DNA from: an uncultured Planctomycetales bacterium | GTDB lineage: Bacteria; Omnitrophota; Gorgyraeia; Zapsychrales; Fredricksoniimonadaceae | DNA: 64,000 nucleotides | Direction of reading: 5' to 3' | Assembly (NCBI GenBank): GCA_964643325.1 | Contig: CAZXSE010000003.1 | Location: 13,960-77,959 of the forward strand | Part shown: piece after piece, positions 12,720 through 63,492 of the stretch | How positions within the stretch are numbered: position 1 is the first letter of the stretch | Layout of the letters: every line of letters begins with the position of its first letter | Translations under genes and position numbers: made by a program | The notes under the pieces: generated by a model | Told to the model about the DNA's origin: nothing | Seen by the model: only the letters and a program-made list of their open reading frames with translations | Databases searched by the model: none

Positions 12720-14117
12720 TTATCCCCGCCGCCAGCTCTGGCCGGCTTTTCCGTCCTCGACGATAATACCGCGCGCTTTCAGCGCGTCGCGCAAAGCATC
12801 CGAACGCGCCCAGTCCTTCTCCTTGCGCGCCTGTGCCCGTTCATTCAACAAGGCTTCATCATCTGCCGTAAGCCCGGCCGGCGCATCTTCAAGCGTAAGC
12901 CCAAAGATCCCCTCGAGGACCTCGCGCAGGAATTTCCCGGCCAGATGAACGCTGCCTTCAAAATAATCATCCTGTTTTCCATCATCAATGAAGCGGTTCA
13001 CCGCGCTCACAAGGTCAAAGATATGCCCCAGCGCCAGCGCCGTATTGAAATCCGCGTCGAGCGCCGCAATGATCTTTTCCTTGGCATCCAGAAGGAACTC
13101 GACCTCATCCATGGCCACCGCGAGCTTTGGCTGCGGCACGGCCTTGATCTTGGCAACAAGGTTCCTGAAGCGCGTAATGCCCTTTTCCATGTCGGCCAGC
13201 TTTTCTTCAGTGTAATCGATAGAGCTGGCATAATGCGTCGATAAAAAGAACAGCTTCATGGCGCCGGTCGAATGCTTTTTCAGCGCGTCCTGCACGGTAA
13301 TGAAATTGCCGAGCGACTTGGCCATCTTTTGCCCGCCGATGGTCAAGAGCCCGTGATGGATCCATGTCTTCGCAAAAACCTTGCCGGTCAGCGCTTCGGC
13401 CTGCGCGATCTCGTTCTCGTGATGCGGAAAAATAAGGTCGCGCCCGCCGGCATGGATATCAAGCGTCTCCGTACCCAGATGCTTGATGCTCATGCAGGAA
13501 CATTCAATGTGCCAGCCCGGCCGGCCATTACCCCACGGGCTAGGCCACGACGGCTCACCCGGCTTGGCCTTCTTCCACAAGGCAAAATCCAGAGGATCCT
13601 CTTTCTTCTCGTCCTTATCGATGCGCACGCCCTCGCGCATCTTATCCACGCTCTGCCCGGAAAGTTTCCCATAATCCGGGAACGAGCGCACGCGAAAATA
13701 AACATCGCCATCCACGGCATACGCGTGGGTTTTCGCGATCAACCCCTCGATATGGGCGATCATCAGCGGAATATTCTCCGTCGCGCGCGGCTCAATGTCC
13801 GCGCGGCCGATGCCCATGTCCGCCATGTCCTTGTGGTAAAGGTCAATATTCTCGCTGACAACAGCCTCAAAGGTCTTGCCCGTCTGCTGGGCCTTCGCAA
13901 TGATCTTGTCGTCCACATCCGTGATGTTGCGCACGAACTTCACGTCATAACCGCGATAGCGCAGATATTTCACCAGGCTGTCAAACGTATAGAGCGAACG
14001 GGCATGGCCGATATGACACTTGTCATACACCGTCACCCCGCACGAATACATGTTGATCCTCGCCGGAGCGTTCGGCAATGCCTGCCGGTCTTTTGTAAGT
14101 GAATTGTATAATTCCAT
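12720..14117 (-). CDS. cysS: cysteine--tRNA ligase
   Basis: HIGHARS and KMAKSLGN class I motifs. SD AGAGGG lies upstream of the ATG at 14117. Confidence 0.95.
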   Translation of the reverse strand: MELYNSLTKDRQALPNAPARINMYSCGVTVYDKCHIGHARSLYTFDSLVKYLRYRGYDVKFVRNITDVDDKIIAKAQQTGKTFEAVVSENIDLYHKDMADMGIGRADIEPRATENIPLMIAHIEGLIAKTHAYAVDGDVYFRVRSFPDYGKLSGQSVDKMREGVRIDKDEKKEDPLDFALWKKAKPGEPSWPSPWGNGRPGWHIECSCMSIKHLGTETLDIHAGGRDLIFPHHENEIAQAEALTGKVFAKTWIHHGLLTIGGQKMAKSLGNFITVQDALKKHSTGAMKLFFLSTHYASSIDYTEEKLADMEKGITRFRNLVAKIKAVPQPKLAVAMDEVEFLLDAKEKIIAALDADFNTALALGHIFDLVSAVNRFIDDGKQDDYFEGSVHLAGKFLREVLEGIFGLTLEDAPAGLTADDEALLNERAQARKEKDWARSDALRDALKARGIIVEDGKAGQSWRRG

Positions 14118-14141: not shown

Positions 14142-14157
14142 AGCGCGCGTATCAGCC
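14142..14157. repeat. 16-nt exact direct repeat AGCGCGCGTATCAGCC (partner at 14370-14385)
   Basis: The identical 16-mer was read at both positions. Related GCGCGC-N-(T)CAG(Y)C(C) motifs start at 14178, 14203 and 14319, and one lies inverted at 14476-14492. Confidence 0.9.
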
Positions 14158-14217
14158 TTGGCCATATGTCCCAAGTAGCGCGCCTTTATCAGTCTCGCTC
14201 ACGCGCGCCTTTCCATT

Positions 14218-14312
14218 GGCCTGCGGTGTGTTTCGCCGCTCAACAGAGAGCGTCTTTTTCCGGAATAACGGTAAGCCGCTCTCTAATTCGCGGCTTAAAC
14301 ACACCGCAAGCC
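14218..14312. repeat. long nested-hairpin repeat, copy A (inverted relative to copies B and C)
   Basis: Outer stem GGCCTGCGGTGTGTTT/AAACACACCGCAAGCC, a 5-bp stem GCCGC/GCGGC and an inner stem AGAGAGCG/CGCTCTCT. The reverse complement aligns with copy C through GCCGCGAATTAGAGA...TCTCTG.TGAGCGGCG. Confidence 0.8.
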
Positions 14313-14369
14313 ACTGCGGCGCGCTATCCATGATCAGTGCCGGCCGACAATGAAAATCCTCTTCTGCAA

Positions 14370-14492
14370 AGCGCGCGTATCAGCCGAAGGCATGTTTTTG
14401 CAGCGCATTCAGAGACCGGCTTACAATAATACCTTTAGAAAAAGACGGTCTCTGCGCGCTAAAAAACATGCCGAGGCTGATAGAAAGCGCGC
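14370..14492. repeat. long nested-hairpin repeat, copy B (abuts cysE stop codon)
   Basis: Nested stems are GCGCGC.TATCAGCC/GGCTGATA.GCGCGC, GGCATGTTTTT/AAAAACATGCC, AGCGC/GCGCT and AGAGACCG/CGGTCTCT. The apical loop is GCTTACAATAATACCTTTAGAAAAAGA. Confidence 0.8.
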
Positions 14493-15157
14493 TACTTAAA
14501 CTTTTTCTCAAGCTCTTCGAGTCGCCTGGTCAACGCATCAATGTCCTGCGTCACCGGATCAAGGATCTGCGCGTGCGCCAGCTTCTGGTCGATCTTTTCC
14601 CCGTCCTGCCTGGTCACATGCCCGGGCACGCCGACGACCGTCGTGTTCGCGGGAACGCTCTTAAGAACGACCGCGTTCGCGCCGATATAAGAATTACTGC
14701 CGATCTCGATATTGCCCAGGATCTTCGCGCCCGCGCCGACAACGATATTATCGCCCAGCGTCGGATGACGCTTGCCGGTCTCTTTTCCCGTACCGCCAAG
14801 GGTCACGCCTTGATATAACAATACATTATCCCCGACGATCGCGGTCTCGCCGATCACCACCCCCATGCCATGGTCGATAAAAAGTCCCTTGCCAATGGTC
14901 GCGCCCGGATGGATCTCGATGCCGGTCAGAAAGCGCGCCAGCTGCGAAAGGGCGCGCGGGATGAGCGGCAGCTTCCATCTCCAAAGTCCGTGCGCCATGC
15001 GATGCAGGACGATCGCGTGAAGCCCGGAATACAGGAACAGGACCTCAAATGTATTCGTCGCCGCCGGGTCGCGCTCCTGCACACCCTTGACCTCCTGATG
15101 AAAAAACACCAGCATGATCGCGAAGAATATGATCAGTACCCATAAAATGAACATCAT
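14492..15157 (-). CDS. cysE: serine O-acetyltransferase
   Basis: [20 protein letters not shown] motif and hexapeptide repeats ([22 protein letters not shown]...). A strong SD (TAAGGAGAG) precedes the ATG at 15157, giving a 14-aa hydrophobic N-terminal extension. Confidence 0.9.
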
Positions 15158-21114: not shown

Positions 21115-22097
21115 TCAAAACCCGATATGCTTCTGCAGCCCCACCACGCTCTCACCCGTGTCCCTCACATCGCCGTTGCCGGTGATAAAGGACTTGAGCT
21201 GTGTCGTCTGCGCGCCGTCAACATCCGCCCGGCGGAACGCCCAGGCGCGGCCGCTGTGCTGGTCCTCAACGATCAATTCTTTCTTCAGCTGCCGCAACTG
21301 CGTTCCCATCCGCGGCATATCGCTCACATCCACAACGCCGGTGACCCTGAAACCGGGCCCGTCGGAAGGGTCGATCCTCCCTTCGGCGATGCGGATCAGC
21401 GGAAAAGTCCCTTCCAGATGAAGGTCAAGATTATCGTAATCGATCCGTTTCAACCGGCCGTTGTATGCCGTCAGCCGGCCGCTGACCCCGGGCCGCGCCA
21501 GCGGGCCTTTTAACGCAAGGGCCGCGCTCGCAATGCCGCTGACAGGCGGCGTATCCACGCCGCGCGCCTGAAGCATGTCCCAGAACTCATCAAGGTCGGC
21601 GGACAGCAATTCCAGTGAAACATCCATCTCATGCCGGTCCATCAGGTCGATCGCGCCCTTGCCCGCGAACGCCCCGAACCAGAACGCGTCCACGATCAGG
21701 CGGCGCTCGCGCACCGCGAATTTCAGGTATCCGTCGCGAACAGGCTTGTAATTGAGCAACGTGTACTGCGTTGACAGCTCGCCCGACAGTTCCCGGCGCA
21801 TCGGGTCATTCCCGACGACCACGAATTTCCCTTCCAGGACAGCCGCGACATCCCATGCCCGGGTCGCGACATGCCGCAGGTCCGCGCGCAGGTCATACTG
21901 CCCCGGACCGGGGTGCGTGATATCCAGGACCGCCGCGCCCTGCCCTTCCTGCCCGACGGTCACCGACAGGCTCTGGGCCTGAAGGTCCAGCATGCCCTCG
22001 AAAGGGATCGTCATTCGCGGCGTGTTCCCGGCCTGAGCCGGCGCCGTCACGGCGACCAGGACCCACAGCGCTATGCCCGCACCAGAACGCCCATGCA

Positions 22098-22101
<4 letters not shown>
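21115..22101 (-). CDS. secreted protein of unknown function (first gene of the mla block)
   Basis: Signal peptide MMHGRSGAGIALWVLVAVTAPAQAG. No family motif recognised; a weak resemblance to AsmA/TamB-type repeats is speculative. The start overlaps the clpC stop by 4 nt. Confidence 0.65.
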
Positions 22102-32196: not shown

Positions 32197-33510
32197 CTAT
32201 TGTTCGCCGAACGCAAAACCCATTTCGGCCTCGCAAACGACCTGCCCGTCGACCTTGCACACGCCTTTGGCCTGCGCGATACGTGAACGGGATTTGGTGA
32301 TCTCAACTTCCATGACCAGCTGATCGCCCGGCTCAACGATCTTGCGGAAGCGGACATTATCAACCGACATATAGAACCCGATCTTACCAAGGAGCGCGGG
32401 CGTTGACAACAGCGTTACCGCCGCCACCTGCGCCATGGCCTCGAGCATCAGAACGCCCGGCATCACGGGCTTCGCCGGAAAGTGCCCCTGAAAAAAAGCT
32501 TCATTGGCCGTCACGTTCTTCACGGCCAGCGCGCGTTTACCGGATTCAAGCTCAAGGATCCGATCCACCAGAAGGAACGGATACCGGTGCGGGATCACAC
32601 CCATGATGCCGCGCACATCCATGGACGTTCCTTCTTTATATTCTACTCTTGCAAGAGGGCGCGACGCCTCATACTTTTTCTTTTGCACGACGATCTGTTT
32701 TAAGAGCTCACGATTCAGGTTGTGCCCGCTTTTGAAAGCGAATACATGCCCCTTGATCGCGGTTCCCAAAAGGAACAGATCGCCAATGCAGTCCAACACC
32801 TTGTGCCGCGCCGCCTCGTCGGAAAATCTTAATGTGTTATTGATAACGCCATCCGGTCCGAACACCAATGTGTTCGATGTGCTCGCGCCCTGCCCCAGGC
32901 CTTTGGCCAACAGCGCGTCCGCCTCTTCTTTCATGCAGAATGTCCGGCACGGCGCGATCTCTTCCGCATAAGTTGCAGGTGTTACCGTCCAGGTCGCGGT
33001 CTGCCGAAGCAGAGGATGCGGATATTCCAGCGCGTAAGAGACCTTGAAATCCGGCGCCGGAACGATCATGACCGAACATCCGCCCCGGGTCACGCACAAC
33101 GGCTCCTTCACTTCAAAACATATTTTTTCAGCGTCAAGCTCGACGATCCCCGCCGAACGCAGCGCCTTCACGTATTCCAGGGCGCTCCCGTCGAGCCCGG
33201 GCGCTTCGTCCCCGTTCATTTCGATCGTGATATTATCGATCCCGAGGCCGCACAAGGCGCTCAGGCAGTGTTCGACCGTATAAATGACCGCATCGCCGTT
33301 CTTGAGCGCGGAATATCTCCCGCCCTCGGCCCCGAAAATAACATCCATGCTCCCCAGCTTGATCGACGGGGCTCCCACCAGGTCGGTTCGCACGAACGTG
33401 ATGCCCGCTCCAGCCAAAGCTGGCTTCATGACAAGGCGTACCTCATGCCCCGTGTGCAAACCCTTGCCGGAAACGCTGACCTCTTTGCCGATCGTCCGCT
33501 GCCTGTCCAT
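32197..33510 (-). CDS. lpxC: bifunctional UDP-3-O-acyl-GlcNAc deacetylase / 3-hydroxyacyl-ACP dehydratase (LpxC-FabZ fusion)
   Basis: The N-terminal LpxC pattern is SGKGLHTG...FVRTD. The C-terminal FabZ pattern is IPHRYPFLLVDRI...FFQGHFP..PVMPGVL.LEAMAQ. Confidence 0.9.
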   Translation of the reverse strand: MDRQRTIGKEVSVSGKGLHTGHEVRLVMKPALAGAGITFVRTDLVGAPSIKLGSMDVIFGAEGGRYSALKNGDAVIYTVEHCLSALCGLGIDNITIEMNGDEAPGLDGSALEYVKALRSAGIVELDAEKICFEVKEPLCVTRGGCSVMIVPAPDFKVSYALEYPHPLLRQTATWTVTPATYAEEIAPCRTFCMKEEADALLAKGLGQGASTSNTLVFGPDGVINNTLRFSDEAARHKVLDCIGDLFLLGTAIKGHVFAFKSGHNLNRELLKQIVVQKKKYEASRPLARVEYKEGTSMDVRGIMGVIPHRYPFLLVDRILELESGKRALAVKNVTANEAFFQGHFPAKPVMPGVLMLEAMAQVAAVTLLSTPALLGKIGFYMSVDNVRFRKIVEPGDQLVMEVEITKSRSRIAQAKGVCKVDGQVVCEAEMGFAFGEQ

Positions 33511-33513
33511 GAA

Positions 33514-34545
33514 CTAGCCGAGCCTCTTTTCGAGTTCCATGATCTTCTTCTCGAGCGCCGCGATGCGTTCCACATACTGCGGCAGGCGCCCCACCAGTCC
33601 CATCTCGCGTATCGCCGCTTTATATTCCTGCGCCGGCGTGCCGAACATCTTGGCTCCCGCCGGAACGTCTTTCGTGATGCCGGATTGCGCGGCCACAACC
33701 GCGCCCTTCCCAACATGAACATGCCCGGCCACGCCCACCTGCCCGGCGATAATGGCATTATTGCCGATGCGGGCACTGCCCGCGATGCCGGCGAGCGCGA
33801 TGACCAGGCAATCTTCGCCGATCTGCACATTGTGCGCGACCTGCACCAAATTATCGATCTTGCTGCCCCTGCCAATGACCGTTCGATCGAACCGCGCGCG
33901 ATCAATAGTGACGCACGCGCCGATCTCCACATCATCCTCGATCACGACCGTGCCCACCTGCGGGACCTTCATGTGTTTTCCGTCAACAGCAATATACCCG
34001 AACCCGTCGGAGCCGATGACCGTATTGCTATGGATGATCACATTATTACCGATGATGCTGTCTTCGCGGACCGTCACGTTCGGATAGATCAGGCAATTCT
34101 TGCCGATGACCGTTTTTTGACCGATAAAACTCCCGGCGCAAATGACCGTGCCGGGGCCGATGGTGACATTTTTATCAATGACCGCGTGCGGCCCGATGCC
34201 CGCGCCTTCGCCGATAACGGCCGAAGGATCAACAACAGCGCTCGCGTGCACGCCTTTGAACTTCGGCGTCAGATCCGTCTTGAACAAAGCAACGGCCTTC
34301 GCGAACGCCAGGGATGGATTGTCCGTCTGGATAACCGTCTTGCCTGCGACCAGCACATCTTTTCCGACGATGATCGCCGCAGCTGGTGCCTGCGACGCCA
34401 ACGGGATGTATTTGGGATTGGCCAAAAAGGTAAGTTCTTCTGCCTGCGCTTCCCTTATCCCGGAAACGCCCTTAACAAGAAGCGCGTCGTTACCCACGAC
34501 GCGCCCTTGGATGAGCTTGGCGATCTCAGCCAGACTTTTCTGCAT
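33514..34545 (-). CDS. lpxD: UDP-3-O-(3-hydroxyacyl)glucosamine N-acyltransferase
   Basis: N-terminal LpxD domain ([14 protein letters not shown]) followed by extensive hexapeptide repeats, 343 aa. Confidence 0.9.
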
Positions 34546-34556
34546 GAACGGATCTT

Positions 34557-35090
34557 TTATTTCTTGCCCTGTTTAAGATAATCCTGATTGAGGCCCTGGA
34601 GCACCGGCTCCGTGATGTTCATGTCCTCCCCGCCATAGATCATGACGCGGTCATTGAAAACAAGGGAATACCCCTGCTGCTTGGCATATTCACTGACGGT
34701 CTTTTCGATCTCCATCAGGATCTCGCGCACCTTTTCGTCGCGCGCCTTGGTCAGGTCCGTGCGCTTCTGGCGGTCAAACTCCATCAGGTCGGCCTTCTTC
34801 TTCTCGATATCCTGCTCGGCCTTGACTTTTTCTTCCTCTTTCAGGGCCGCTGTCTTGCCCTGAAGCTCGCGGATGGCATCGATCTTCTTGTTGCGCTCCG
34901 CCTCGAACTTCTCGCCCTCGACAACAAGGACCTTGTCATAAGCCTTGGTCTTCTCGTACTCGTCAAAAAGCCGGGTCAGGTTGACATAAGCGACCTTGCC
35001 CTTGAGCTCCTGCGCCTGTGCGTTCGGCACCAGCGCGGTGCCTGCTAGGAACAACGCTGCTATAACGATCATCAATTTCCACGACCTCAT
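34557..35090 (-). CDS. skp: periplasmic chaperone Skp (OmpH family)
   Basis: Signal peptide followed by a Lys/Glu-rich coiled coil, 177 aa, located between bamA and lpxD. Confidence 0.85.
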
Positions 35091-40053: not shown

Positions 40054-40347
40054 TTATTCCCCGACCCGGATGATCAGAAAACGCAAAATACGTTCGTTCA
40101 GCTGCAGCTCACGGCGCAGCTTGCCCATCTCCGACGCCTTGCCCTCGATGTTCAGCAAATAATACGTTGCCTCCCAGGCTTTCCTGATCGGGAACGACAT
40201 CCGCTGGCGCTCGAACCATACTGCCGTATTCACCAGGCTCGCGCCGGTCTTGGCAAGAAGGTCAGCGACGATCTTGGCGATCTCGCCCTTCTCCGCGTCG
40301 GTCAAACGTGCATCCACCATGTAGATCAATTCATACTTGTTCATCAT
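40054..40347 (-). CDS. rpsF: 30S ribosomal protein S6
   Basis: YELIYMVDARLTDAE... pattern, 97 aa, first gene of rpsF-ssb-rpsR. Confidence 0.9.
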   Translation of the reverse strand: MMNKYELIYMVDARLTDAEKGEIAKIVADLLAKTGASLVNTAVWFERQRMSFPIRKAWEATYYLLNIEGKASEMGKLRRELQLNERILRFLIIRVGE

Positions 40348-40924
40348 TCTTCCTTTTGTTATACAATGTCATCGCTCTGGCCGTATCATTCGCAAGCCAC
40401 AAACGGCAGCAATCGCACGCACGCTCCAGAACTTCCCCGATCATCTTCTTCTGTGCCGCGTCAAAAACCGCCAGCACAAAATCTTTTTGCATATCTTCCG
40501 CGGCCGGCGCCCCGATCCCGACCCTCAAGCGTGTGTACTCCTCGGTCCCCAGATGCGCCGCGACCGACTTGAGCCCGTTATGGCCCGCATCAGAACCGCT
40601 CGTCCGCAGCCTGATCTGGCCGATATCAAGCCGAAGGTCATCGCACACGACCAGGATGTCTTCCGGCGCCACATTGTCAAATTTGACGATCGCCGCGACC
40701 GCCCGTCCCGAATCGTTCATGAAGGTTTGCGGCAACGCCACAAGGACCCTCTGGCCGTCCTCACGGACCTCGGCCGTCAATGCCGGGGCGTACCTGCATT
40801 TCTTAAATGCCGCGCCCAACTCCTGCGCCAGCGCCTCAACGACCATAAAGCCGGTATTGTGGCGCGTCTTTTCATATTCACGCCCGGGATTTCCCAGGCC
40901 AACGATGAGTTTTGTTGTTGCCAC
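40331..40924 (-). CDS. pth: peptidyl-tRNA hydrolase
   Basis: LIVGLGNPGREYEKTRHNTGF motif. Confidence 0.9.
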   Translation of the reverse strand: MATTKLIVGLGNPGREYEKTRHNTGFMVVEALAQELGAAFKKCRYAPALTAEVREDGQRVLVALPQTFMNDSGRAVAAIVKFDNVAPEDILVVCDDLRLDIGQIRLRTSGSDAGHNGLKSVAAHLGTEEYTRLRVGIGAPAAEDMQKDFVLAVFDAAQKKMIGEVLERACDCCRLWLANDTARAMTLYNKRKNDEQV

Positions 40925-40954
40925 AACCGGCCCCCACCGTTATCAATACGTCTG

Positions 40955-41680
40955 TTACTTCTTCGCCTCGGGCTTTGCCGCCGGAGCCGCTTTCGCGCCT
41001 GCCGCCGGGGCTGCTTCCGCATCCTTCGGCTTTTCCTTGATGACCTCGAGTTCCGGAGCCGCCGCTGCCGCGTCGGTCGCCGCCGCCGCTTCAACCTCGC
41101 GGGTCGCGAACACGAGCGTCACCACCGTAGCGCCCATATCCATCTTGGTGCGAACGCCCTGCGGTAATGCCAGGTCTTTCACGTGAATGGAAACATGCGT
41201 ATCCACGTTCGTCACGTCCACGTCCAGATGCGTCGGAATATCCTTCGGAAGACAGATGACCTCGAGCTCGCGGATCATATGCTCGAGCGTTGCGCCTTCC
41301 TTCTTGAGGCCGATCGCCGTGCCCTTAAGGATGATCGGGATCTTGATCGAAATTTCCTTGTCCATCGAGATGCGCAGGAAATCCAGGTGCGCGACCATGT
41401 CGCTGACCGGGTCATGCTGCGTATCCTTGAGCATGGCCATCAGGTCTCCCTGCTTCTTGCCGGCATCCATCACTTGCAAATGATAGATCGCGCTCGACGT
41501 TTCATAATGGCGGACAATGCGCTCAAAATCCTTGCGCGCCAGCTGAACGGACTGCGCTGCGCCGCCTTCGCCGTAAATAACAGCCGGGACAATGCCCTTC
41601 TTGCGCAGGCGGCACGACGGGCCGCTGCCTTTTACATTCCTTGCTTCAACGGTCAATTCGATCTGTTCCATATCCTTCAA
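40955..41680 (-). CDS. rplY: 50S ribosomal protein L25 / general stress protein Ctc
   Basis: LR..G.VPAVIYG N-terminal pattern and an Ala/Lys/Pro-rich C-terminal tail, 241 aa. Confidence 0.85.
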   Translation of the reverse strand: MKDMEQIELTVEARNVKGSGPSCRLRKKGIVPAVIYGEGGAAQSVQLARKDFERIVRHYETSSAIYHLQVMDAGKKQGDLMAMLKDTQHDPVSDMVAHLDFLRISMDKEISIKIPIILKGTAIGLKKEGATLEHMIRELEVICLPKDIPTHLDVDVTNVDTHVSIHVKDLALPQGVRTKMDMGATVVTLVFATREVEAAAATDAAAAAPELEVIKEKPKDAEAAPAAGAKAAPAAKPEAKK

Positions 41681-44017: not shown

Positions 44018-44173
44018 GTTCAAATATATTAGGGAAAAGGGGGCGGACAAAATATCCAAAAAGACCTGGATTCTGACTAAGATGCGGGAGCCATCCCACT
44101 GCAGGATAGGTATCTCTATATTACTATTACTTGGCCCTTGAAAGAATCCTTTCAAGGGCAGCCATTTGGTCTC

Positions 44174-44218
44174 ATAAAAGCGAAAAACCCTCTCCCATAC
44201 GGGATAAGGGTTTTTCGC
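44174..44218 (-). terminator. Rho-independent terminator downstream of tRNA-Gln
   Basis: On the minus strand, the 12-bp stem GCGAAAAACCCT/AGGGTTTTTCGC (with a nested CCC-GTAT-GGG) is followed by TTTTAT. Confidence 0.7.
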
Positions 44219-44231
44219 TCTATGGAACAAA

Positions 44232-44305
44232 TGGCTGCCCGGCTAGGATTCGAACCTAGAAACTCAGAACCAAAATCTGATGTGTTACCATTACACTACC
44301 GGGCA
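44232..44305 (-). tRNA. tRNA-Gln (anticodon TTG), CCA encoded
   Basis: Manual cloverleaf. The 7-bp acceptor is TGCCCGG/CCGGGCA (U1:A72, discriminator G). The D stem is GTGT/ACAC. The anticodon stem TCAGA/TCTGA carries loop TTTTGGT. The T arm is CTAGG-TTCGAAT-CCTAG. Total length 74 nt. Confidence 0.95.
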
Positions 44306-49262: not shown

Positions 49263-49991
49263 CTATTTCATCATGATAACAGAGATCATGCGGCCCGAAT
49301 GGTCCGCGTCGCGACGGAATGAATGGAAGCGCGCGGCATCCTTGAACGAACACAGGCCGCTGTCAAAAATGTTCGCGGGCAAAACCCCGGCCGCCGTCAG
49401 CTGGCGCAGATTGGCCGCGAAAATATCAAAACGCAATCCCGATGGCGTCTCCTGCGTCTCGAGGGGAAAATATTCCTTGAACTCCTCCCCGACCGCACAG
49501 CTGTCGCGGCGGATGCACGGGCCGATGGCCGCTCGGATATTTGTGGGATCGACCTTGTAAGAGGCGCGCATGACATCGACCGTCTTGTGCGCGATATCAA
49601 GCTTGGTGCTTTTCCACCCGGCGTGAACGGCCGCGATCACGCGGCGCACCGGATCATACAAAAGCGCGGGCAGGCAATCCGCCGTGCGTATCGCGATGGG
49701 CAGTCCGATAACATCAGTAACAACAGCATCCGCCTCGAACGCGCCGGATCTTTCCATATCCTTACGCGTCACCTGCCAGACTTTATCGCCGTGGACCTGT
49801 TTCGGGACAATGATGCCCTGCTCTGCATTAATGCCGCGCGCCTGAAGATACAACTTTTGCGCGGCTGTCAGGACATAAAACGGGCTACCAGGCTCGCCTG
49901 TCATGAAATCAAGCGACCTGTCGCTGGTGAATGCTGTTACGCCGAGGAATTTTGAATAGTTGGTATCTGTCATAGAAACGTTCCGTGGCAT
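49263..49991 (-). CDS. pgeF: purine nucleoside phosphorylase / laccase-domain protein PgeF (YfiH)
   Basis: QVHGDKV, TADCLP and AVHAGWK motifs. The start is uncertain (ATG 49991 or 49973), and 49991 overlaps the outer stem of hairpin copy C. Confidence 0.8.
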   Translation of the reverse strand: MPRNVSMTDTNYSKFLGVTAFTSDRSLDFMTGEPGSPFYVLTAAQKLYLQARGINAEQGIIVPKQVHGDKVWQVTRKDMERSGAFEADAVVTDVIGLPIAIRTADCLPALLYDPVRRVIAAVHAGWKSTKLDIAHKTVDVMRASYKVDPTNIRAAIGPCIRRDSCAVGEEFKEYFPLETQETPSGLRFDIFAANLRQLTAAGVLPANIFDSGLCSFKDAARFHSFRRDADHSGRMISVIMMK

Positions 49992-50109
49992 GTTGCGATA
50001 GCGGTTTGGTGTATGCCATGGCCGCGAATTAGAGACCGGCTACAATAATCCTTGGGAAAAGCCGGTCTCTGCTGAGCGGCGGGCATACACCAAACGCAAG
50101 CAACATGCC
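49987..50109. repeat. long nested-hairpin repeat, copy C
   Basis: Nested stems are GGCATGTTGC/GCAACATGCC, GTTTGGTGTATGCC/GGCATACACCAAAC, GCCGC/GCGGC and AGAGACCGGC/GCCGGTCTCT. The apical loop is TACAATAATCCTTGGGAAAA. Confidence 0.8.
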
Positions 50110-50123
50110 GTCATGGTTGCTAT

Positions 50124-51179
50124 TTATTCCGCTTCCGGCAAACTTCCCTGCTTGAATTCCTCGATATGCCGGATCTTGGTGTCAATGTTCTTGAAGCTCT
50201 TATCGCGGATGTCCCTGTAATTGGCGTCGAGATCGGCAATGAGCTTCTCCATGTCCGCGAAACGTTCCTTGAAAGTGGCGTAATGCTTCACAAAGATCCC
50301 GATATCCTGAATGATCTTGCGCAGGTCGCGCTCAAAACGGAAATTCTCATGCGCCTGACGGATGACCGCGAGCGTAGCATATAACGTGAAGGGCGAACAC
50401 AGGACAACTTTCTGTTTGAGTGCCTCGTCCATGAACTCGGGCGCAACCTCATGGATATAGCCGAAGACCTGTTCGTTGGGAATGAACAACATCACGAAAT
50501 CCAGCGTATTCTCCGACGGATTAATGTAATCACGCGTTTGCAGTTCCTTGACCCGGGCGCGCGCATTCTTAATGAACTCTTTGGAGCACGCCTCGCGTTC
50601 CATATCAGAAGGCGCGTTGACCATCTTGAGATAATTATCCAACGGGAACTTCACATCCATATTAACGATCCGCTCATCCGGCAAAAGGAACGTGATGTCC
50701 GGCTTGGTCGTGGATGATGCCAACTGGGTCTGCTTGCGGTAATTAACATTCTCCAGAAGGCCGGCATGGCGGATGATATCCTCGGCCATGCGCTCGCCCC
50801 ACTGGCCGCGCAATTTCACATTGCCCAGGACATTGGTCAGATTTCCCGTCGTATCCTGAAGCTTGAGCGTGGCCTGCGCGGCATTGGCCAATTCCTTCTC
50901 AAGCGCGCCGAACTTCTGCGCCCTATCCGTTTCCCAGGAGCGCAGCAGCTGTTCATAATCCTTAAGGCGGGCCTCAAGAGCGCGCACAGTCCCTTCCAAC
51001 GCCTGCCGTCGCGATTCCGCGTCCACCGCGTCCTTCGTGCGCTCATCGCGGGCCGCGCGCAACAGCGCTTCAACCCCGGAATTCTGCCGCAGAACAATAA
51101 CAGCAAGAATGGCCGTGACAAAGCCAAGGACCGCGATAACAGCGAACATCATAGGATCATCTCCTGTCGCCAGCGGCAA
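50124..51179 (-). CDS. rmuC: DNA recombination protein RmuC
   Basis: N-terminal TM, then a coiled coil and a C-terminal RmuC nuclease-like domain (KPDITFLLPDERIVNMDVKFPL...LFIPNEQVF). An alternative start is at 51152. Confidence 0.8.
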   Translation of the reverse strand: MPLATGDDPMMFAVIAVLGFVTAILAVIVLRQNSGVEALLRAARDERTKDAVDAESRRQALEGTVRALEARLKDYEQLLRSWETDRAQKFGALEKELANAAQATLKLQDTTGNLTNVLGNVKLRGQWGERMAEDIIRHAGLLENVNYRKQTQLASSTTKPDITFLLPDERIVNMDVKFPLDNYLKMVNAPSDMEREACSKEFIKNARARVKELQTRDYINPSENTLDFVMLFIPNEQVFGYIHEVAPEFMDEALKQKVVLCSPFTLYATLAVIRQAHENFRFERDLRKIIQDIGIFVKHYATFKERFADMEKLIADLDANYRDIRDKSFKNIDTKIRHIEEFKQGSLPEAE

Positions 51180-62125: not shown

Positions 62126-62878
62126 CTAATATCTTGCCCTGCTCAATTCAATCTCTTTCTTCACAGCCCCGATGCGGTCATTGATATCCGGATGCGTCCG
62201 CAGCAGCAGCCATTCATTCTCCTGCCCCTTGCCGTCCTTTGCCAGGATCTCGAACGTTGTCACAATGGCGGAGGGGTCATATCCGGCCAAATGCATATAC
62301 TTGACCGCGAGCCGGTCCGCCTCATACTCATCCTGACGGCTGTAGGCGCGGCTGCCCAGCTGCATCAGCGCGTCGCCCCCGAGCCGCGTGATCCGCGCGG
62401 CCACGTCGCTGGAAAGGGAATTGACGAGCATGGTGCTGACCAGGTCATAGCCCAACGCGGCCTGATATTTCTTGATCACATGGCGCGCCGCGCAATGGCC
62501 GATCTCGTGCGCCAGCACGGCCGCGATCTCGTCATCCGTCAAAAGTTTCTGGTACAATCCCGTATAAAAATAAATGTGGCCACCCGGGATCGTGAACGCG
62601 TTCATTTCATCCTGCTTGACCAAATAAAAAACATACTGATAATCCTGGCGATCCGCGACCTGGGACAAGCGCCGGCCAATGCGATCCAGGCGCGCCTGGG
62701 CGGCCTTGTCAGCGGCAAAAGTCATGCCCCCGCGCATCTGCTGATGGATATCCTGCCCCATCATCACTTCCATGGGGCTGGTGAATACGATGAATTCCTT
62801 CCGCCCCGTGGCCGCGTTATAGCTCAGGCATCCAGAGACCATCACAAGACTGATGAACAGGGCCGCAAAGCGCATCAT
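62126..62878 (-). CDS. M48 family zinc metallopeptidase, probable lipoprotein (YcaL/LoiP-like)
   Basis: ORF trimmed to MMRFAALFISLVMVSGC (lipobox-like). HEIGHCAARH zinc motif. The start overlaps the stop of the HD gene (ATGA). Confidence 0.8.
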   Translation of the reverse strand: MMRFAALFISLVMVSGCLSYNAATGRKEFIVFTSPMEVMMGQDIHQQMRGGMTFAADKAAQARLDRIGRRLSQVADRQDYQYVFYLVKQDEMNAFTIPGGHIYFYTGLYQKLLTDDEIAAVLAHEIGHCAARHVIKKYQAALGYDLVSTMLVNSLSSDVAARITRLGGDALMQLGSRAYSRQDEYEADRLAVKYMHLAGYDPSAIVTTFEILAKDGKGQENEWLLLRTHPDINDRIGAVKKEIELSRARY

Positions 62879-63492
62879 CGTTCGAACTTCACGACATTCT
62901 CCCACCAGATCGTAGAATCCCAATGCTGGAGGTCTTTCCATAATTTCTTCGCCGTGCGCGTCTTGAGGAATCCCGGCGCGCGTTGCAGGAATTTGCGGGC
63001 GACCGGATGCCCGTTATCCTCATATTCCCTGGCCTGGACAAGACATTCCAGGATATCCGCGTCGCGCGCAATGAGCGCTTCATGCGTGCGCTGACTGTCG
63101 TAATCGCCGCGCACATCGATCAGGGCCGCCTTGACCTTCGACGGCAACGGCGCCACCTGATCCTTGAAAACGCGCTTCTCCGCGTCCTTGAAATCAATAT
63201 AGAAATGCCCCATCTTGTGAAGGTCGTTGATCCGCGCCTCATGGATATCATTAAAAAGGGTCATGGCCAGCACGCGATAAGGGTCCGCGCCTTCCTCATG
63301 CGCCATATAAAATCCGATGACTGCGCAGCGGAAACAATGGTCCGCCACGCTCTCGGGATCCTTGATGCCCGCCACCCACCAGCCGCTGCGCTTCACGCGC
63401 TTGAGCAGTCCCGCTTCCGCGAAAAAATCAAGCGGCACGCTGGTGTTACGGGTTCTTTTTTCCCTGCTGGTCTTTTTGTTTTTTAATTTCAT
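62875..63492 (-). CDS. HD domain phosphohydrolase (YfbR-like 5'-nucleotidase family)
   Basis: LKRVKRSGW....ESVADH......IG........D..........NDIHEARINDL pattern. The start is uncertain: ATG 63492 overlaps rlmB by 47 nt, and GTG 63438 is an alternative. Confidence 0.75.
   Translation of the reverse strand: MKLKNKKTSREKRTRNTSVPLDFFAEAGLLKRVKRSGWWVAGIKDPESVADHCFRCAVIGFYMAHEEGADPYRVLAMTLFNDIHEARINDLHKMGHFYIDFKDAEKRVFKDQVAPLPSKVKAALIDVRGDYDSQRTHEALIARDADILECLVQAREYEDNGHPVARKFLQRAPGFLKTRTAKKLWKDLQHWDSTIWWENVVKFER

What the first reader, a model, noticed from the sequence alone, without database searches (positions are those of the whole stretch)
49987..50109. Third member of the hairpin family shows compensatory stem changes
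Copy C lies in the rmuC-pgeF spacer, 36 kb from copies A and B. It aligns with the reverse complement of copy A through GCCGCGAATTAGAGA(C/G)CGGC...(G)CCG(G/C)TCTCTG(C/T)TGAGCGGCG, so it belongs to the same family.

The helices differ between copies but stay complementary:
- The inner helix is AGAGACCG/CGGTCTCT in B and C, and AGAGAGCG/CGCTCTCT in A. This is a paired C:G to G:C swap.
- The next helix out is GTTTGGTGTATGCC/GGCATACACCAAAC in C, GCGGTGTGTTT/AAACACACCGC in A and GGCATGTTTTT/AAAAACATGCC in B.

This pattern points to selection on the fold, either as RNA or as single-stranded DNA recognised by a transposase. The copies occur in both orientations relative to the surrounding minus-strand transcription, which favours a palindromic mobile or structural element over an orientation-specific sRNA. 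Neither option is excluded.
Basis: seen in the sequence. Interest (0 to 1): 0.55.

Follow-up and report, generated by a model that had tools for sequence, protein, structure and literature searches.

The report
Palindromic intergenic repeat family in Omnitrophota
A 123-base stretch that folds into one long hairpin was inserted between two housekeeping genes of an uncultivated Omnitrophota bacterium; it belongs to a small, undescribed family of palindromic intergenic repeats, which is a well-known kind of bacterial element, so it is real but fairly ordinary.

Summary
Window 49987-50109 is a four-layer imperfect palindrome (RNA -77.6/-76 kcal/mol, z about -9 to -10). It shares a polar 60-nt core with copies A (14202-14325, inverted) and B (14370-14493). 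A covariance model finds exactly these three copies in 64 kb.

Three more copies exist:
- two in Omnitrophica MAG bin-489
- one on an ENA metagenome contig

All six lie between co-directional housekeeping genes, two sense and four antisense.

The same gene junctions are empty in relatives:
- rmuC/pgeF overlap by 4 nt or are 9 nt apart
- cysE-cysS are 16 nt apart

In other relatives the junctions hold unrelated palindromes, including a textbook GTAG-REP dimer. Copy C is therefore inserted DNA, not a conserved leader.

The helices covary: 97% of cells pair and 9 of 26 pairs have double changes. The apical stem is nearly invariant in sequence, with a conserved G·A mismatch.

I found no Rfam match, promoter, terminator or G·U strand bias, and no transposase among the 20 window ORFs scanned.

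Best reading: a REPIN/ERIC-like non-autonomous palindromic repeat recognised through its apical hairpin. The mobilising enzyme and any RNA role are untested. It is a new member of a known kind, of modest interest.

The parts
49987..50109 (+). Copy C, the whole element. The forward orientation, defined by AGAGASCGGCT-(T)AC...AAG-N-CGSTCTCT, is on the + strand, so it is antisense to the flanking minus-strand genes.
   Evidence: (88.3 bits, E 2e-23)
49987..49996 (+). C outermost stem, 5' arm GGCATGTTGC. It pairs with 50100-50109. The GGCATGT motif is shared with B and L071, and appears as GGCATAT in L005 and L007.
50100..50109 (+). C outermost stem, 3' arm GCAACATGCC.
50004..50017 (+). C second stem, 5' arm GTTTGGTGTATGCC. 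This extra layer is specific to copy C. Its GGTGT/ACACC part is shared with copy A.
   Evidence: (I12, 100% complementary)
50082..50095 (+). C second stem, 3' arm GGCATACACCAAAC.
50021..50030 (+). GCCGC stem arm plus the 5' side of the internal loop (GAATT). GCCGC pairs with GCGGC at 50076-50080. The GA adjoining the stem on each strand could form tandem G·A pairs (inference).
50031..50070 (+). Conserved apical module: inner stem AGAGACCGGCT / AGCCGGTCTCT around an 18-nt asymmetric loop (ACAATAATCCTTGGGAAA).
   Evidence: I3; 10 of 11 pairs invariant across six copies
50071..50080 (+). 3' side of the internal loop (GCTGA) plus the GCGGC stem arm.
14202..14325 (-). Copy A, inverted relative to B and C and therefore sense to the flanking genes. 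It is the G-type: inner stem AGAGAGCG/CGCTCTCT, second stem GCGGTGTGTTT/AAACACACCGC, outer stem GCGCGCC/GGCGCGC.
   Evidence: (97.2 bits on the - strand against 39.1 on +)
14370..14493 (+). Copy B, C-type and antisense to the genes. Inner stem at 14411-14421 / 14443-14453, second stem GGCATGTTTTT/AAAAACATGCC, outer shell AGCGCGCGTATCAGCC / GGCTGATAGAAAGCGCGCT. The shell overlaps the cysE stop codon by 2 nt.
   Evidence: (89.1 bits)
50124..51179 (-). rmuC, the upstream gene. Its stop codon is at 50124-50126, 14 nt from the element.
   Evidence: Pfam RmuC in the syntenic genes of relatives
49263..49973 (-). pgeF, the downstream gene. Its start ATG is at 49971-49973, 13 nt from the element.
   Evidence: (exact product on record)
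12720..14117 (-). cysS, downstream of A and B.
14492..15157 (-). cysE, upstream of B.

Best explanation
Copy C is one member of a low-copy family of imperfect palindromes, about 100-135 nt long, found so far only in a few Candidatus Omnitrophota genomes. It is inserted DNA. It split an rmuC-pgeF junction that is overlapping or 9 nt long in relatives.

The family behaves like the non-autonomous palindromic repeats of other bacteria (REP dimers/REPINs, ERIC, MITE-like elements). Copies sit in the few permissive spacers of a compact genome, in either orientation, without an own promoter or terminator.

Proposed mechanism (inferred, not shown):
- The unit that is propagated and kept is the folded single strand.
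- Its sequence-conserved, polar apical hairpin is the recognition site for a trans-acting protein encoded elsewhere in the genome. This hairpin is AGAGASCGGCT(T)AC...AAG-N-CGSTCTCT, with a G·A mismatch in five of six copies.
- That protein is most plausibly a single-strand-specific (HUH/Y1-type) enzyme.
- The outer stems only need to pair. They therefore diverge freely between subfamilies while staying complementary, through element-level selection for the hairpin, arm-to-arm correction, or both.
- Extra layers arise by nesting inside older palindromes.

When transcribed inside its operon, the element also puts a hairpin of about -76 kcal/mol 13 nt upstream of the pgeF start codon. That may incidentally affect mRNA processing or coupling.
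For: Shown:
1. Three copies in the window share a polar core. Three more copies lie in other genomes at unrelated loci: ribD-ribE and proA-nadD in Omnitrophica bin-489, and icd-lipB on an ENA contig.
2. Empty sites exist. rmuC/pgeF overlap by 4 nt in L083 and are 9 nt apart in L085/L086. cysE-cysS are 16 nt apart in L087-L090. Model R1 finds no copy in about 150 kb of syntenic DNA from relatives.
3. The same spacers hold unrelated palindromes in other relatives: L081, and GTAG-REP dimers in L091 and L096. L091 keeps the same outer shell as copy B, abutting the cysE stop codon, but has a different interior, which points to nesting or replacement.
4. L005 and L071 are 81% identical over about 124 nt, outer stems included, yet sit at different loci. 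The whole unit therefore travels.
5. Pairing is kept in 97.4% of cells and 9 of 26 pairs have double changes, while the inner helix is invariant at 10 of 11 pairs.
6. Orientation is mixed, 2 sense and 4 antisense. G·U counts are 11 forward against 10 reverse, so there is no strand bias.
7. There is no Rfam hit and no promoter or terminator belonging to the elements.
8. I saw no consistent target-site duplication when reading the flanks. That fits HUH-type transposition rather than DDE-type.

From the literature: compensatory changes are common in REPIN hairpins (PMC3116915). REP dimers fold into large stem-loops and lie between unidirectional ORFs (PMC3733652).
Against: - No mobilising enzyme was identified. 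Twenty non-syntenic ORFs of the window have no transposase domain, and the rest of the genome could not be read.
- Copy number looks low. There are 3 copies in 64 kb here, and only 2 strict-pattern hits in the whole bin-489 MAG.
- Within-genome copies are only 50-57% identical. That is unlike an actively transposing family and more like old insertions or maintained paralogues.
- The most conserved part is the apex, not the termini, which is the reverse of classical MITEs.
- Only six distinct copies were available, and the alignment used for counting was fitted to the model structure.
Confidence: 0.6

Rival explanations
1. A host-selected cis-acting RNA structure. The hairpin would be kept because, as part of the operon transcript, it acts as an RNase III/E processing site, an mRNA stabiliser, a terminator without a U-tract, or a decoupler of translation. 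The conserved apex would bind an RNA-binding protein.
For: - All six copies lie inside co-directional gene pairs and would be co-transcribed.
- The stems stay near perfect despite 50% sequence divergence between copies.
- The core sequence is conserved between genomes: A against L007 is 83%, and L005 against L071 is 92%.
- The elements leave 13-21 nt free before the next start codon in C, L005 and L007.
Against: - Copies are in both orientations, so the transcribed RNA differs between copies: the loop, the mismatch and the internal loop are asymmetric. The model scores the reverse strand 50-60 bits lower.
- The junctions work without the element in relatives.
- There is no G·U strand bias, no U-tract terminator and no Rfam family.
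Confidence: 0.2
2. Fossil palindromes. These would be old insertions or local inverted duplications that are no longer mobile and have no function. Their arms would stay complementary only through hairpin-templated correction or gene conversion between arms.
For: - Copy number is low and within-genome identity is only 50-57%.
- A and B are adjacent and inverted, within a spacer full of local repeats (AGCGCGC..TATCAG occurs 4 times).
- No transposase was found nearby.
Against: - The apical stem, the TTAC, the AAG and the G·A mismatch are conserved in sequence across genomes and loci. Arm-to-arm correction would preserve pairing, not a specific sequence or a specific mismatch.
- Two subtypes, G-type and C-type, are each present in two genomes.
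Confidence: 0.12
3. An independent small RNA gene family, with each copy transcribed from its own promoter on the forward strand.
For: The element has a defined polarity and a conserved asymmetric loop.
Against: - There is no sigma-70-like promoter or intrinsic terminator on either strand at C, A or B. One terminator-like hit lies inside A, on its reverse strand only.
- In C the outermost stem starts 13 nt from the pgeF start codon, so any forward-strand promoter would have to lie inside the pgeF coding sequence.
- No Rfam match.
- The element is absent from close relatives' genomes at these and neighbouring loci.
Confidence: 0.04

Closest known systems
REP dimers / REPINs (RAYT-associated repetitive extragenic palindromes)
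   Same: - Intergenic, about 100 nt, two inverted halves folding into one long hairpin.
- Found in either orientation.
- Compensatory changes in the hairpin are common (PMC3116915).
- Located between unidirectional ORFs, with no target-site duplication.
- Several families can coexist in related genomes (PMC3733652).
- A textbook GTAG-REP dimer occupies the very same spacers in relatives.
   Different: - There is no unpaired GTAG/CGTC tag at the foot of a self-folding 20-40-nt unit. The only GTAR is at the loop edge on the reverse strand.
- The arms are barely self-complementary (4-5 bp).
- Copy number appears low and within-genome copies are very diverged.
- No RAYT was seen.
ERIC / IRU (enterobacterial repetitive intergenic consensus, 127-bp imperfect palindromes)
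   Same: - Similar size (about 125 nt), an imperfect palindrome with a highly conserved central inverted repeat.
- Lies in transcribed intergenic regions of operons, in both orientations.
- Present or absent at orthologous junctions between related species.
- Conserved across species. These properties are from established knowledge (Hulton 1991; Wilson & Sharp 2006, cited in PMC3116915).
   Different: - No sequence similarity: the ERIC2 core is absent even with 3 mismatches.
- Different phylum.
- ERIC copies share the whole consensus, whereas here the outer stems differ between subfamilies.
MITEs (Correia/NEMIS, RPE, Nezha and similar)
   Same: Short, non-coding, palindromic insertions that depend on a trans-acting enzyme. 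Insertion polymorphism is seen between relatives.
   Different: - In MITEs the terminal inverted repeats are the conserved part and target-site duplications flank the element.
- Here the termini vary, the apex is conserved and no duplication is evident.
Hairpin recognition sites of HUH enzymes (IS200/IS605 ends and their PATE derivatives, rolling-circle origins)
   Same: An imperfect, polar hairpin with a conserved mismatch and a conserved loop-edge tetranucleotide (TTAC). Strand asymmetry is built into a palindrome.
   Different: This is a resemblance in logic only. No TnpA, Rep or TnpB gene is adjacent, no left-end/right-end pair is present, and cleavage sites are unknown.

Membership tests
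REP / REPIN (GTAG- or CGTC-tagged) | An unpaired GTAG or CGTC tetranucleotide at one end of a 20-40-bp self-folding palindromic unit (PMC3733652). | tested here: not met
   - The arm GCCGCGAATTAGAGASCGGC can self-pair over only 4-5 bp.
- The tag-like GTAA (GTAG in copy C) and CGTC lie at the loop edges on the reverse strand, not at the foot of a unit hairpin.
- By contrast, the L091/L096 repeat GTAGGGGCCGACCTTGTGTCGGCCC meets this feature.
REP / REPIN (GTAG- or CGTC-tagged) | Two inverted units plus a spacer that fold into one long hairpin, with compensatory changes. | tested here: met
   Folds. Pair counts: 97.4% paired and 9 of 26 pairs with double changes.
REP / REPIN (GTAG- or CGTC-tagged) | High copy number, tens to hundreds per genome. 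| tested here: inconclusive
   There are 3 copies in 64 kb, but only 2 strict-pattern hits in the whole bin-489 MAG. The full genome of the window organism could not be read.
REP / REPIN (GTAG- or CGTC-tagged) | A cognate RAYT (Y1 transposase) gene in the same genome, flanked by the repeats. | not testable with these tools
   No transposase domain in 20 non-syntenic window ORFs.
ERIC / IRU | Sequence match to the 127-bp ERIC consensus (central inverted repeat). | tested here: not met
   ERIC2 core AAGTAAGTGACTGGGGTGAGCG: 0 matches with up to 3 mismatches.
MITE (DDE-transposase-dependent) | Conserved terminal inverted repeats flanked by a target-site duplication. | tested here: not met
   - The outermost stems differ between copies: GGCATGTTGC in C, AGCGCGC in A and B, ATTGCC in L005 and L071.
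- No direct repeat consistently flanks the copies.
Any curated RNA family (Rfam 15) | Score at or above the family's gathering threshold. | tested here: not met
   The only hit at the gathering threshold is a tRNA at 44235-44305. E-value searches over both spacers gave only generic miRNA-hairpin models far below threshold.
Integron attC site | RYYYAAC ... GTTRRRY boxes at the base of the hairpin, downstream of promoterless cassettes and next to intI. | tested here: not met
   By reading the sequence: the base of the hairpin has no such boxes in the right polarity. The flanking genes are conserved syntenic housekeeping genes.

The most novel reading that the evidence does not exclude
The conserved, polar apical module is AGAGASCGGCT-TAC...AAG-ACGSTCTCT, with its fixed G·A mismatch and the GA/GA internal loop below it. 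It could be the specific recognition or nicking hairpin of an uncharacterised single-strand DNA enzyme. That would define a type of palindromic mobile element whose conserved part is the apex rather than the termini, and which nests inside other palindromes. Alternatively, it could be the binding site of an RNA-binding protein, making this a new Omnitrophota-specific structured RNA class seeded into operons.
Probability: 0.12. Interest if true: 0.6.

Novelty: new member of a known kind. Interest (0 to 1): 0.3.

Why it matters
Omnitrophota are uncultivated, often ultra-small bacteria with compact genomes, and I found no description of their repeat content in the searched literature.

This family, and the GTAG-REP and other palindromes seen in the same spacers of relatives, show that a handful of permissive operon junctions are repeatedly colonised by different hairpin elements.

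Practical uses:
- The elements are strain and lineage markers.
- They are likely break points for metagenome assembly.

Biologically, the combination of an invariant apex and free-running but always complementary outer stems gives a small, clean case for asking what keeps bacterial palindromes palindromic. Candidates are element-level selection, arm-to-arm correction, or host RNA function.

None of this changes current understanding unless the apex turns out to recruit a new enzyme.

Tried and rejected
- **Alphaproteobacterial repeat (RIME/Bru-RS type).** Considered from the GC content alone. Rejected because the homologues of the flanking proteins are named Candidatus Omnitrophica/Omnitrophota and the out-of-window copies are in an Omnitrophica MAG.
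- **Plasmid collection.** No match for the element or its 4-kb surroundings.
- **Genome-collection scan with the core pattern.** Returned 44 loci, 42 of them unrelated palindromes picked up by the pattern itself, including a Chlamydiae MAG repeat. The metagenome scan gave 34 loci with 1 true member.
- **Viral contigs.** 0 hits for the full core and for either half-site.
- **Rfam.** Nothing at the gathering or E-value thresholds.
- **Outer stems as arms of a pre-existing target hairpin at the rmuC-pgeF site.** Rejected for C, because the empty sites have no hairpin (a 4-nt overlap or a 9-nt spacer). Nesting inside an older palindrome remains plausible for B.
- **K-turn reading of the GAATT/GYTGA internal loop.** Rejected by inspection, because the GA positions do not fit the bulged-strand consensus.
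- **Divergence between bin-489 and the window organism.** Could not be measured, because no shared orthologues lie in the DNA held.
- **Window contig accession.** Not recoverable.
- **Closest CysE relatives.** Their loci had gene tables but no DNA.

Full report
**1. What is at the coordinates**

Window 49987-50109 is a four-layer imperfect palindrome:
- GGCATGTTGC (49987-49996) pairs with GCAACATGCC (50100-50109).
- GTTTGGTGTATGCC (50004-50017) pairs with GGCATACACCAAAC (50082-50095).
- GCCGC (50021-50025) pairs with GCGGC (50076-50080), across a 5x5 internal loop (GAATT / GCTGA).
- AGAGACCGGCT (50031-50041) pairs with AGCCGGTCTCT (50060-50070), around an 18-nt loop.

It folds equally well on either strand and far better than chance:
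- As RNA: -77.6 kcal/mol on + and -76.0 on -, z -9.3 and -10.3.
- As ssDNA: -44.5 and -43.4, z -9.6.
- In a sliding 150-nt scan of the whole window, C and A are the two most stable windows, and B is among the best eight distinct regions.

The element is fully intergenic:
- The rmuC stop codon is at 50124-50126.
- pgeF starts at the ATG at 49971-49973. The product from that start is on record, and homologues begin the same way.

**2. Family and polarity**

- The 20-mer GCCGCGAATTAGAGASCGGC occurs only in C (+) and A (-).
- Copies A (14202-14325) and B (14370-14493) fill the 374-nt cysE-cysS spacer.
- The loop and the stem imperfections are asymmetric, so the orientation can be defined.
- A covariance model built from six copies scores the forward strand at 88-97 bits and the reverse at 33-39. 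It finds no fourth copy in the window.
- The paired C:G (B, C) to G:C (A) difference and the three different second helices are confirmed.

**3. Organism and relatives**

The window's proteins are found exactly only on short contigs of JGI metagenome 3300076298, and those contigs carry identical elements. Named homologues of PgeF, CysE and RibE are from Candidatus Omnitrophica/Omnitrophota MAGs.

Pattern scans of the genome and metagenome collections returned mostly unrelated palindromes. Three are true members:
- L005 lies between ribD and ribE in Omnitrophica bin-489.
- L007 lies between proA and nadD in Omnitrophica bin-489.
- L071 lies between icd and lipB on an ENA contig.

All six copies lie between co-directional housekeeping genes. 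A and L007 are sense to the genes; B, C, L005 and L071 are antisense.

There are no hits in viral contigs or plasmids and none in Rfam.

**4. The element is an insertion**

Synteny around both window sites is conserved in relatives at 69-83% protein identity.

| Junction | State in relatives |
|---|---|
| rmuC-pgeF | 4-nt overlap in L083 |
| rmuC-pgeF | 9-nt spacer in L085/L086 |
| rmuC-pgeF | 185-nt unrelated palindrome in L081 |
| cysE-cysS | 16-nt spacer in L087-L090 |
| cysE-cysS | 190 nt in L091 |
| ribD-ribE | 169 nt with the element in the bin-489 species |
| ribD-ribE | 90 nt with a GTAG-REP dimer in L096 |

The L091 spacer needs a closer look. It keeps the same outer shell as copy B (TAG-CGCGC..TATCAGCC ... 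ACATGCCTYCGG..GCGCGC), still abutting the cysE stop codon. Its interior, however, is a dimer of GTAGGGGCCGACCTTGTGTCGGCCC, a textbook GTAG-tagged REP.

Model R1 finds nothing in about 150 kb of these relatives.

The parsimonious reading has three parts:
- The compact junctions are ancestral.
- Different palindromic elements have colonised the same few permissive spacers in different lineages.
- Some elements nest inside older palindromes.

**5. Evolutionary pattern**

Counts on the model-guided alignment of six copies:
- 97.4% of cells form standard pairs.
- 9 of 26 pairs show changes on both sides.
- Shuffled and slid controls are far lower.

These counts lean towards the structure because the alignment was fitted to it, and six related sequences are few.

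The three helices behave differently:
- The inner helix is invariant at 10 of 11 pairs and has one C:G/G:C pair. A single event explains that pair.
- A G·A mismatch (CG**G**CT / AG**A**CG) is present in five of six copies.
- The middle helix (GGCATRT / AYATGCC) carries double substitutions in A and C.
- The outermost stems are subfamily-specific.

Pairwise identities:
- Within the window, copies are only 50-57% identical overall and 63-78% in the core.
- A resembles L007 (core 83%).
- L005 resembles L071 (81% overall, 92% core), although they sit at different loci in different assemblies.

Subfamilies therefore predate these genomes, and whole units, outer stems included, have moved.

G·U counts show no strand bias, 11 forward against 10 reverse. 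No promoter-like or terminator-like signals belong to the elements. None of the 20 non-syntenic ORFs scanned against Pfam has a transposase domain.

**6. Interpretation**

The features above match the known class of non-autonomous palindromic intergenic repeats.
- REPIN hairpins are documented to show frequent compensatory changes (PMC3116915).
- REP dimers fold into large stem-loops, sit between unidirectional ORFs, and several families can coexist (PMC3733652).
- ERIC elements share the size, the operon-internal location, both orientations and a conserved central inverted repeat. That is established knowledge, and there is no sequence relation.

The family is not a member of any of these by their defining features:
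- It has no GTAG/CGTC-tagged self-folding unit.
- It has no ERIC consensus.
- It has no conserved termini with target-site duplication.

What is unusual is that the apex is conserved in sequence while the base varies. I infer that the apical hairpin is the recognised part and that the rest only has to pair. The recognising protein is unknown. I favour a single-strand-specific HUH/Y1-type enzyme for three reasons:
- Polarity is built into the palindrome.
- The mismatch is conserved.
- There is no target-site duplication.

A host RNA role, such as processing or stabilisation inside operons, cannot be excluded and could coexist as a by-product. The mixed orientation and the dispensability of the element in relatives argue against it as the primary reason for conservation.

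**7. Verdict**

- The feature is a new family of a known kind of element in a poorly studied phylum.
- Interest is modest (0.3).
- The most novel reading still open is an apex-recognised mobile hairpin with a new enzyme, or a new RNA class. I give it about 12%.

Noticed in passing
L091 4015-4039 and L096 1858-1882 (relatives from JGI samples 3300002026/27): An exact 25-mer, GTAGGGGCCGACCTTGTGTCGGCCC, pairs with an inverted partner ending CCCCTAC. It looks like a classical GTAG-tagged REP dimer (REPIN). It sits in the cysE-cysS and ribD-ribE spacers, the same junctions that hold the studied family in the window organism and in bin-489. It is absent from the window.
   Followed up: partly
window 14142-14155, 14177-14192, 14370-14383 (+) and 14477-14493 (-); L091 3976-3990: The short motif AGCGCGC-N(1-6)-TATCAG occurs four times, only in the cysE-cysS spacer (0 expected). 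It forms the outermost shell of copy B and overlaps the cysE TAG stop codon. The same shell sits at the same place in relative L091, so it predates the interior elements.
   Followed up: partly
L081 9816-10000: The closest PgeF relative (75% identity) has a 185-nt rmuC-pgeF spacer holding a different long palindrome (GGCTTTGCG...CGCAAAGCC, fold -88.7 kcal/mol). It has no similarity to the studied family.
   Followed up: partly
window 44138-44305: A tRNA gene lies on the minus strand at 44235-44305 (Rfam, 66 bits). Its 3' end overlaps one arm of a 16-nt inverted repeat (GGGCAGCCATTTGGTC / GAACAAATGGCTGCCC). The repeat encloses a terminator-like hairpin (GCGAAAAACCCT...AGGGTTTTTCGC). This is the fourth most stable 150-nt window in the scan.
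   Followed up: no
all six copies (window A, B, C; L005, L007, L071): The two G-type copies (A, L007) are both sense to the flanking genes. The four C-type copies are all antisense. With six copies this association has a chance probability of about 1 in 15 and no obvious meaning.
   Followed up: no
L011, L025, L027, L031, L044 (Chlamydiae MAG JABDFI01) and L062, L064 (Ga0157379 metagenome contigs): An abundant palindromic repeat of about 130 nt (ACCACCCGCTTCGCTAGAGAGCACAGAGTTCACAGAGAGCGGCTTCG...) lies on at least five contigs of one Chlamydiae MAG, with relatives on two metagenome contigs. It is unrelated to the studied family and was picked up only because its centre matches the search pattern.
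   Followed up: no
window 33016-34581 (+), 40308-41186 (+), 62192-63094 (+), 21115-22101 (-): Several long ORFs (292-521 aa) have no Pfam match at E of 0.001 or lower. The three on the + strand sit in a mostly minus-strand region, so they may be spurious or lineage-specific genes.
   Followed up: no
window 50100-50122: The 3' outer arm of copy C (AGCAACATG) can also pair with CATGGTTGCT immediately downstream, next to the rmuC stop codon. That gives an alternative small hairpin and a third copy of the GCAAC-ATG motif. Its origin is unclear; it could be a remnant of the insertion event.
   Followed up: no
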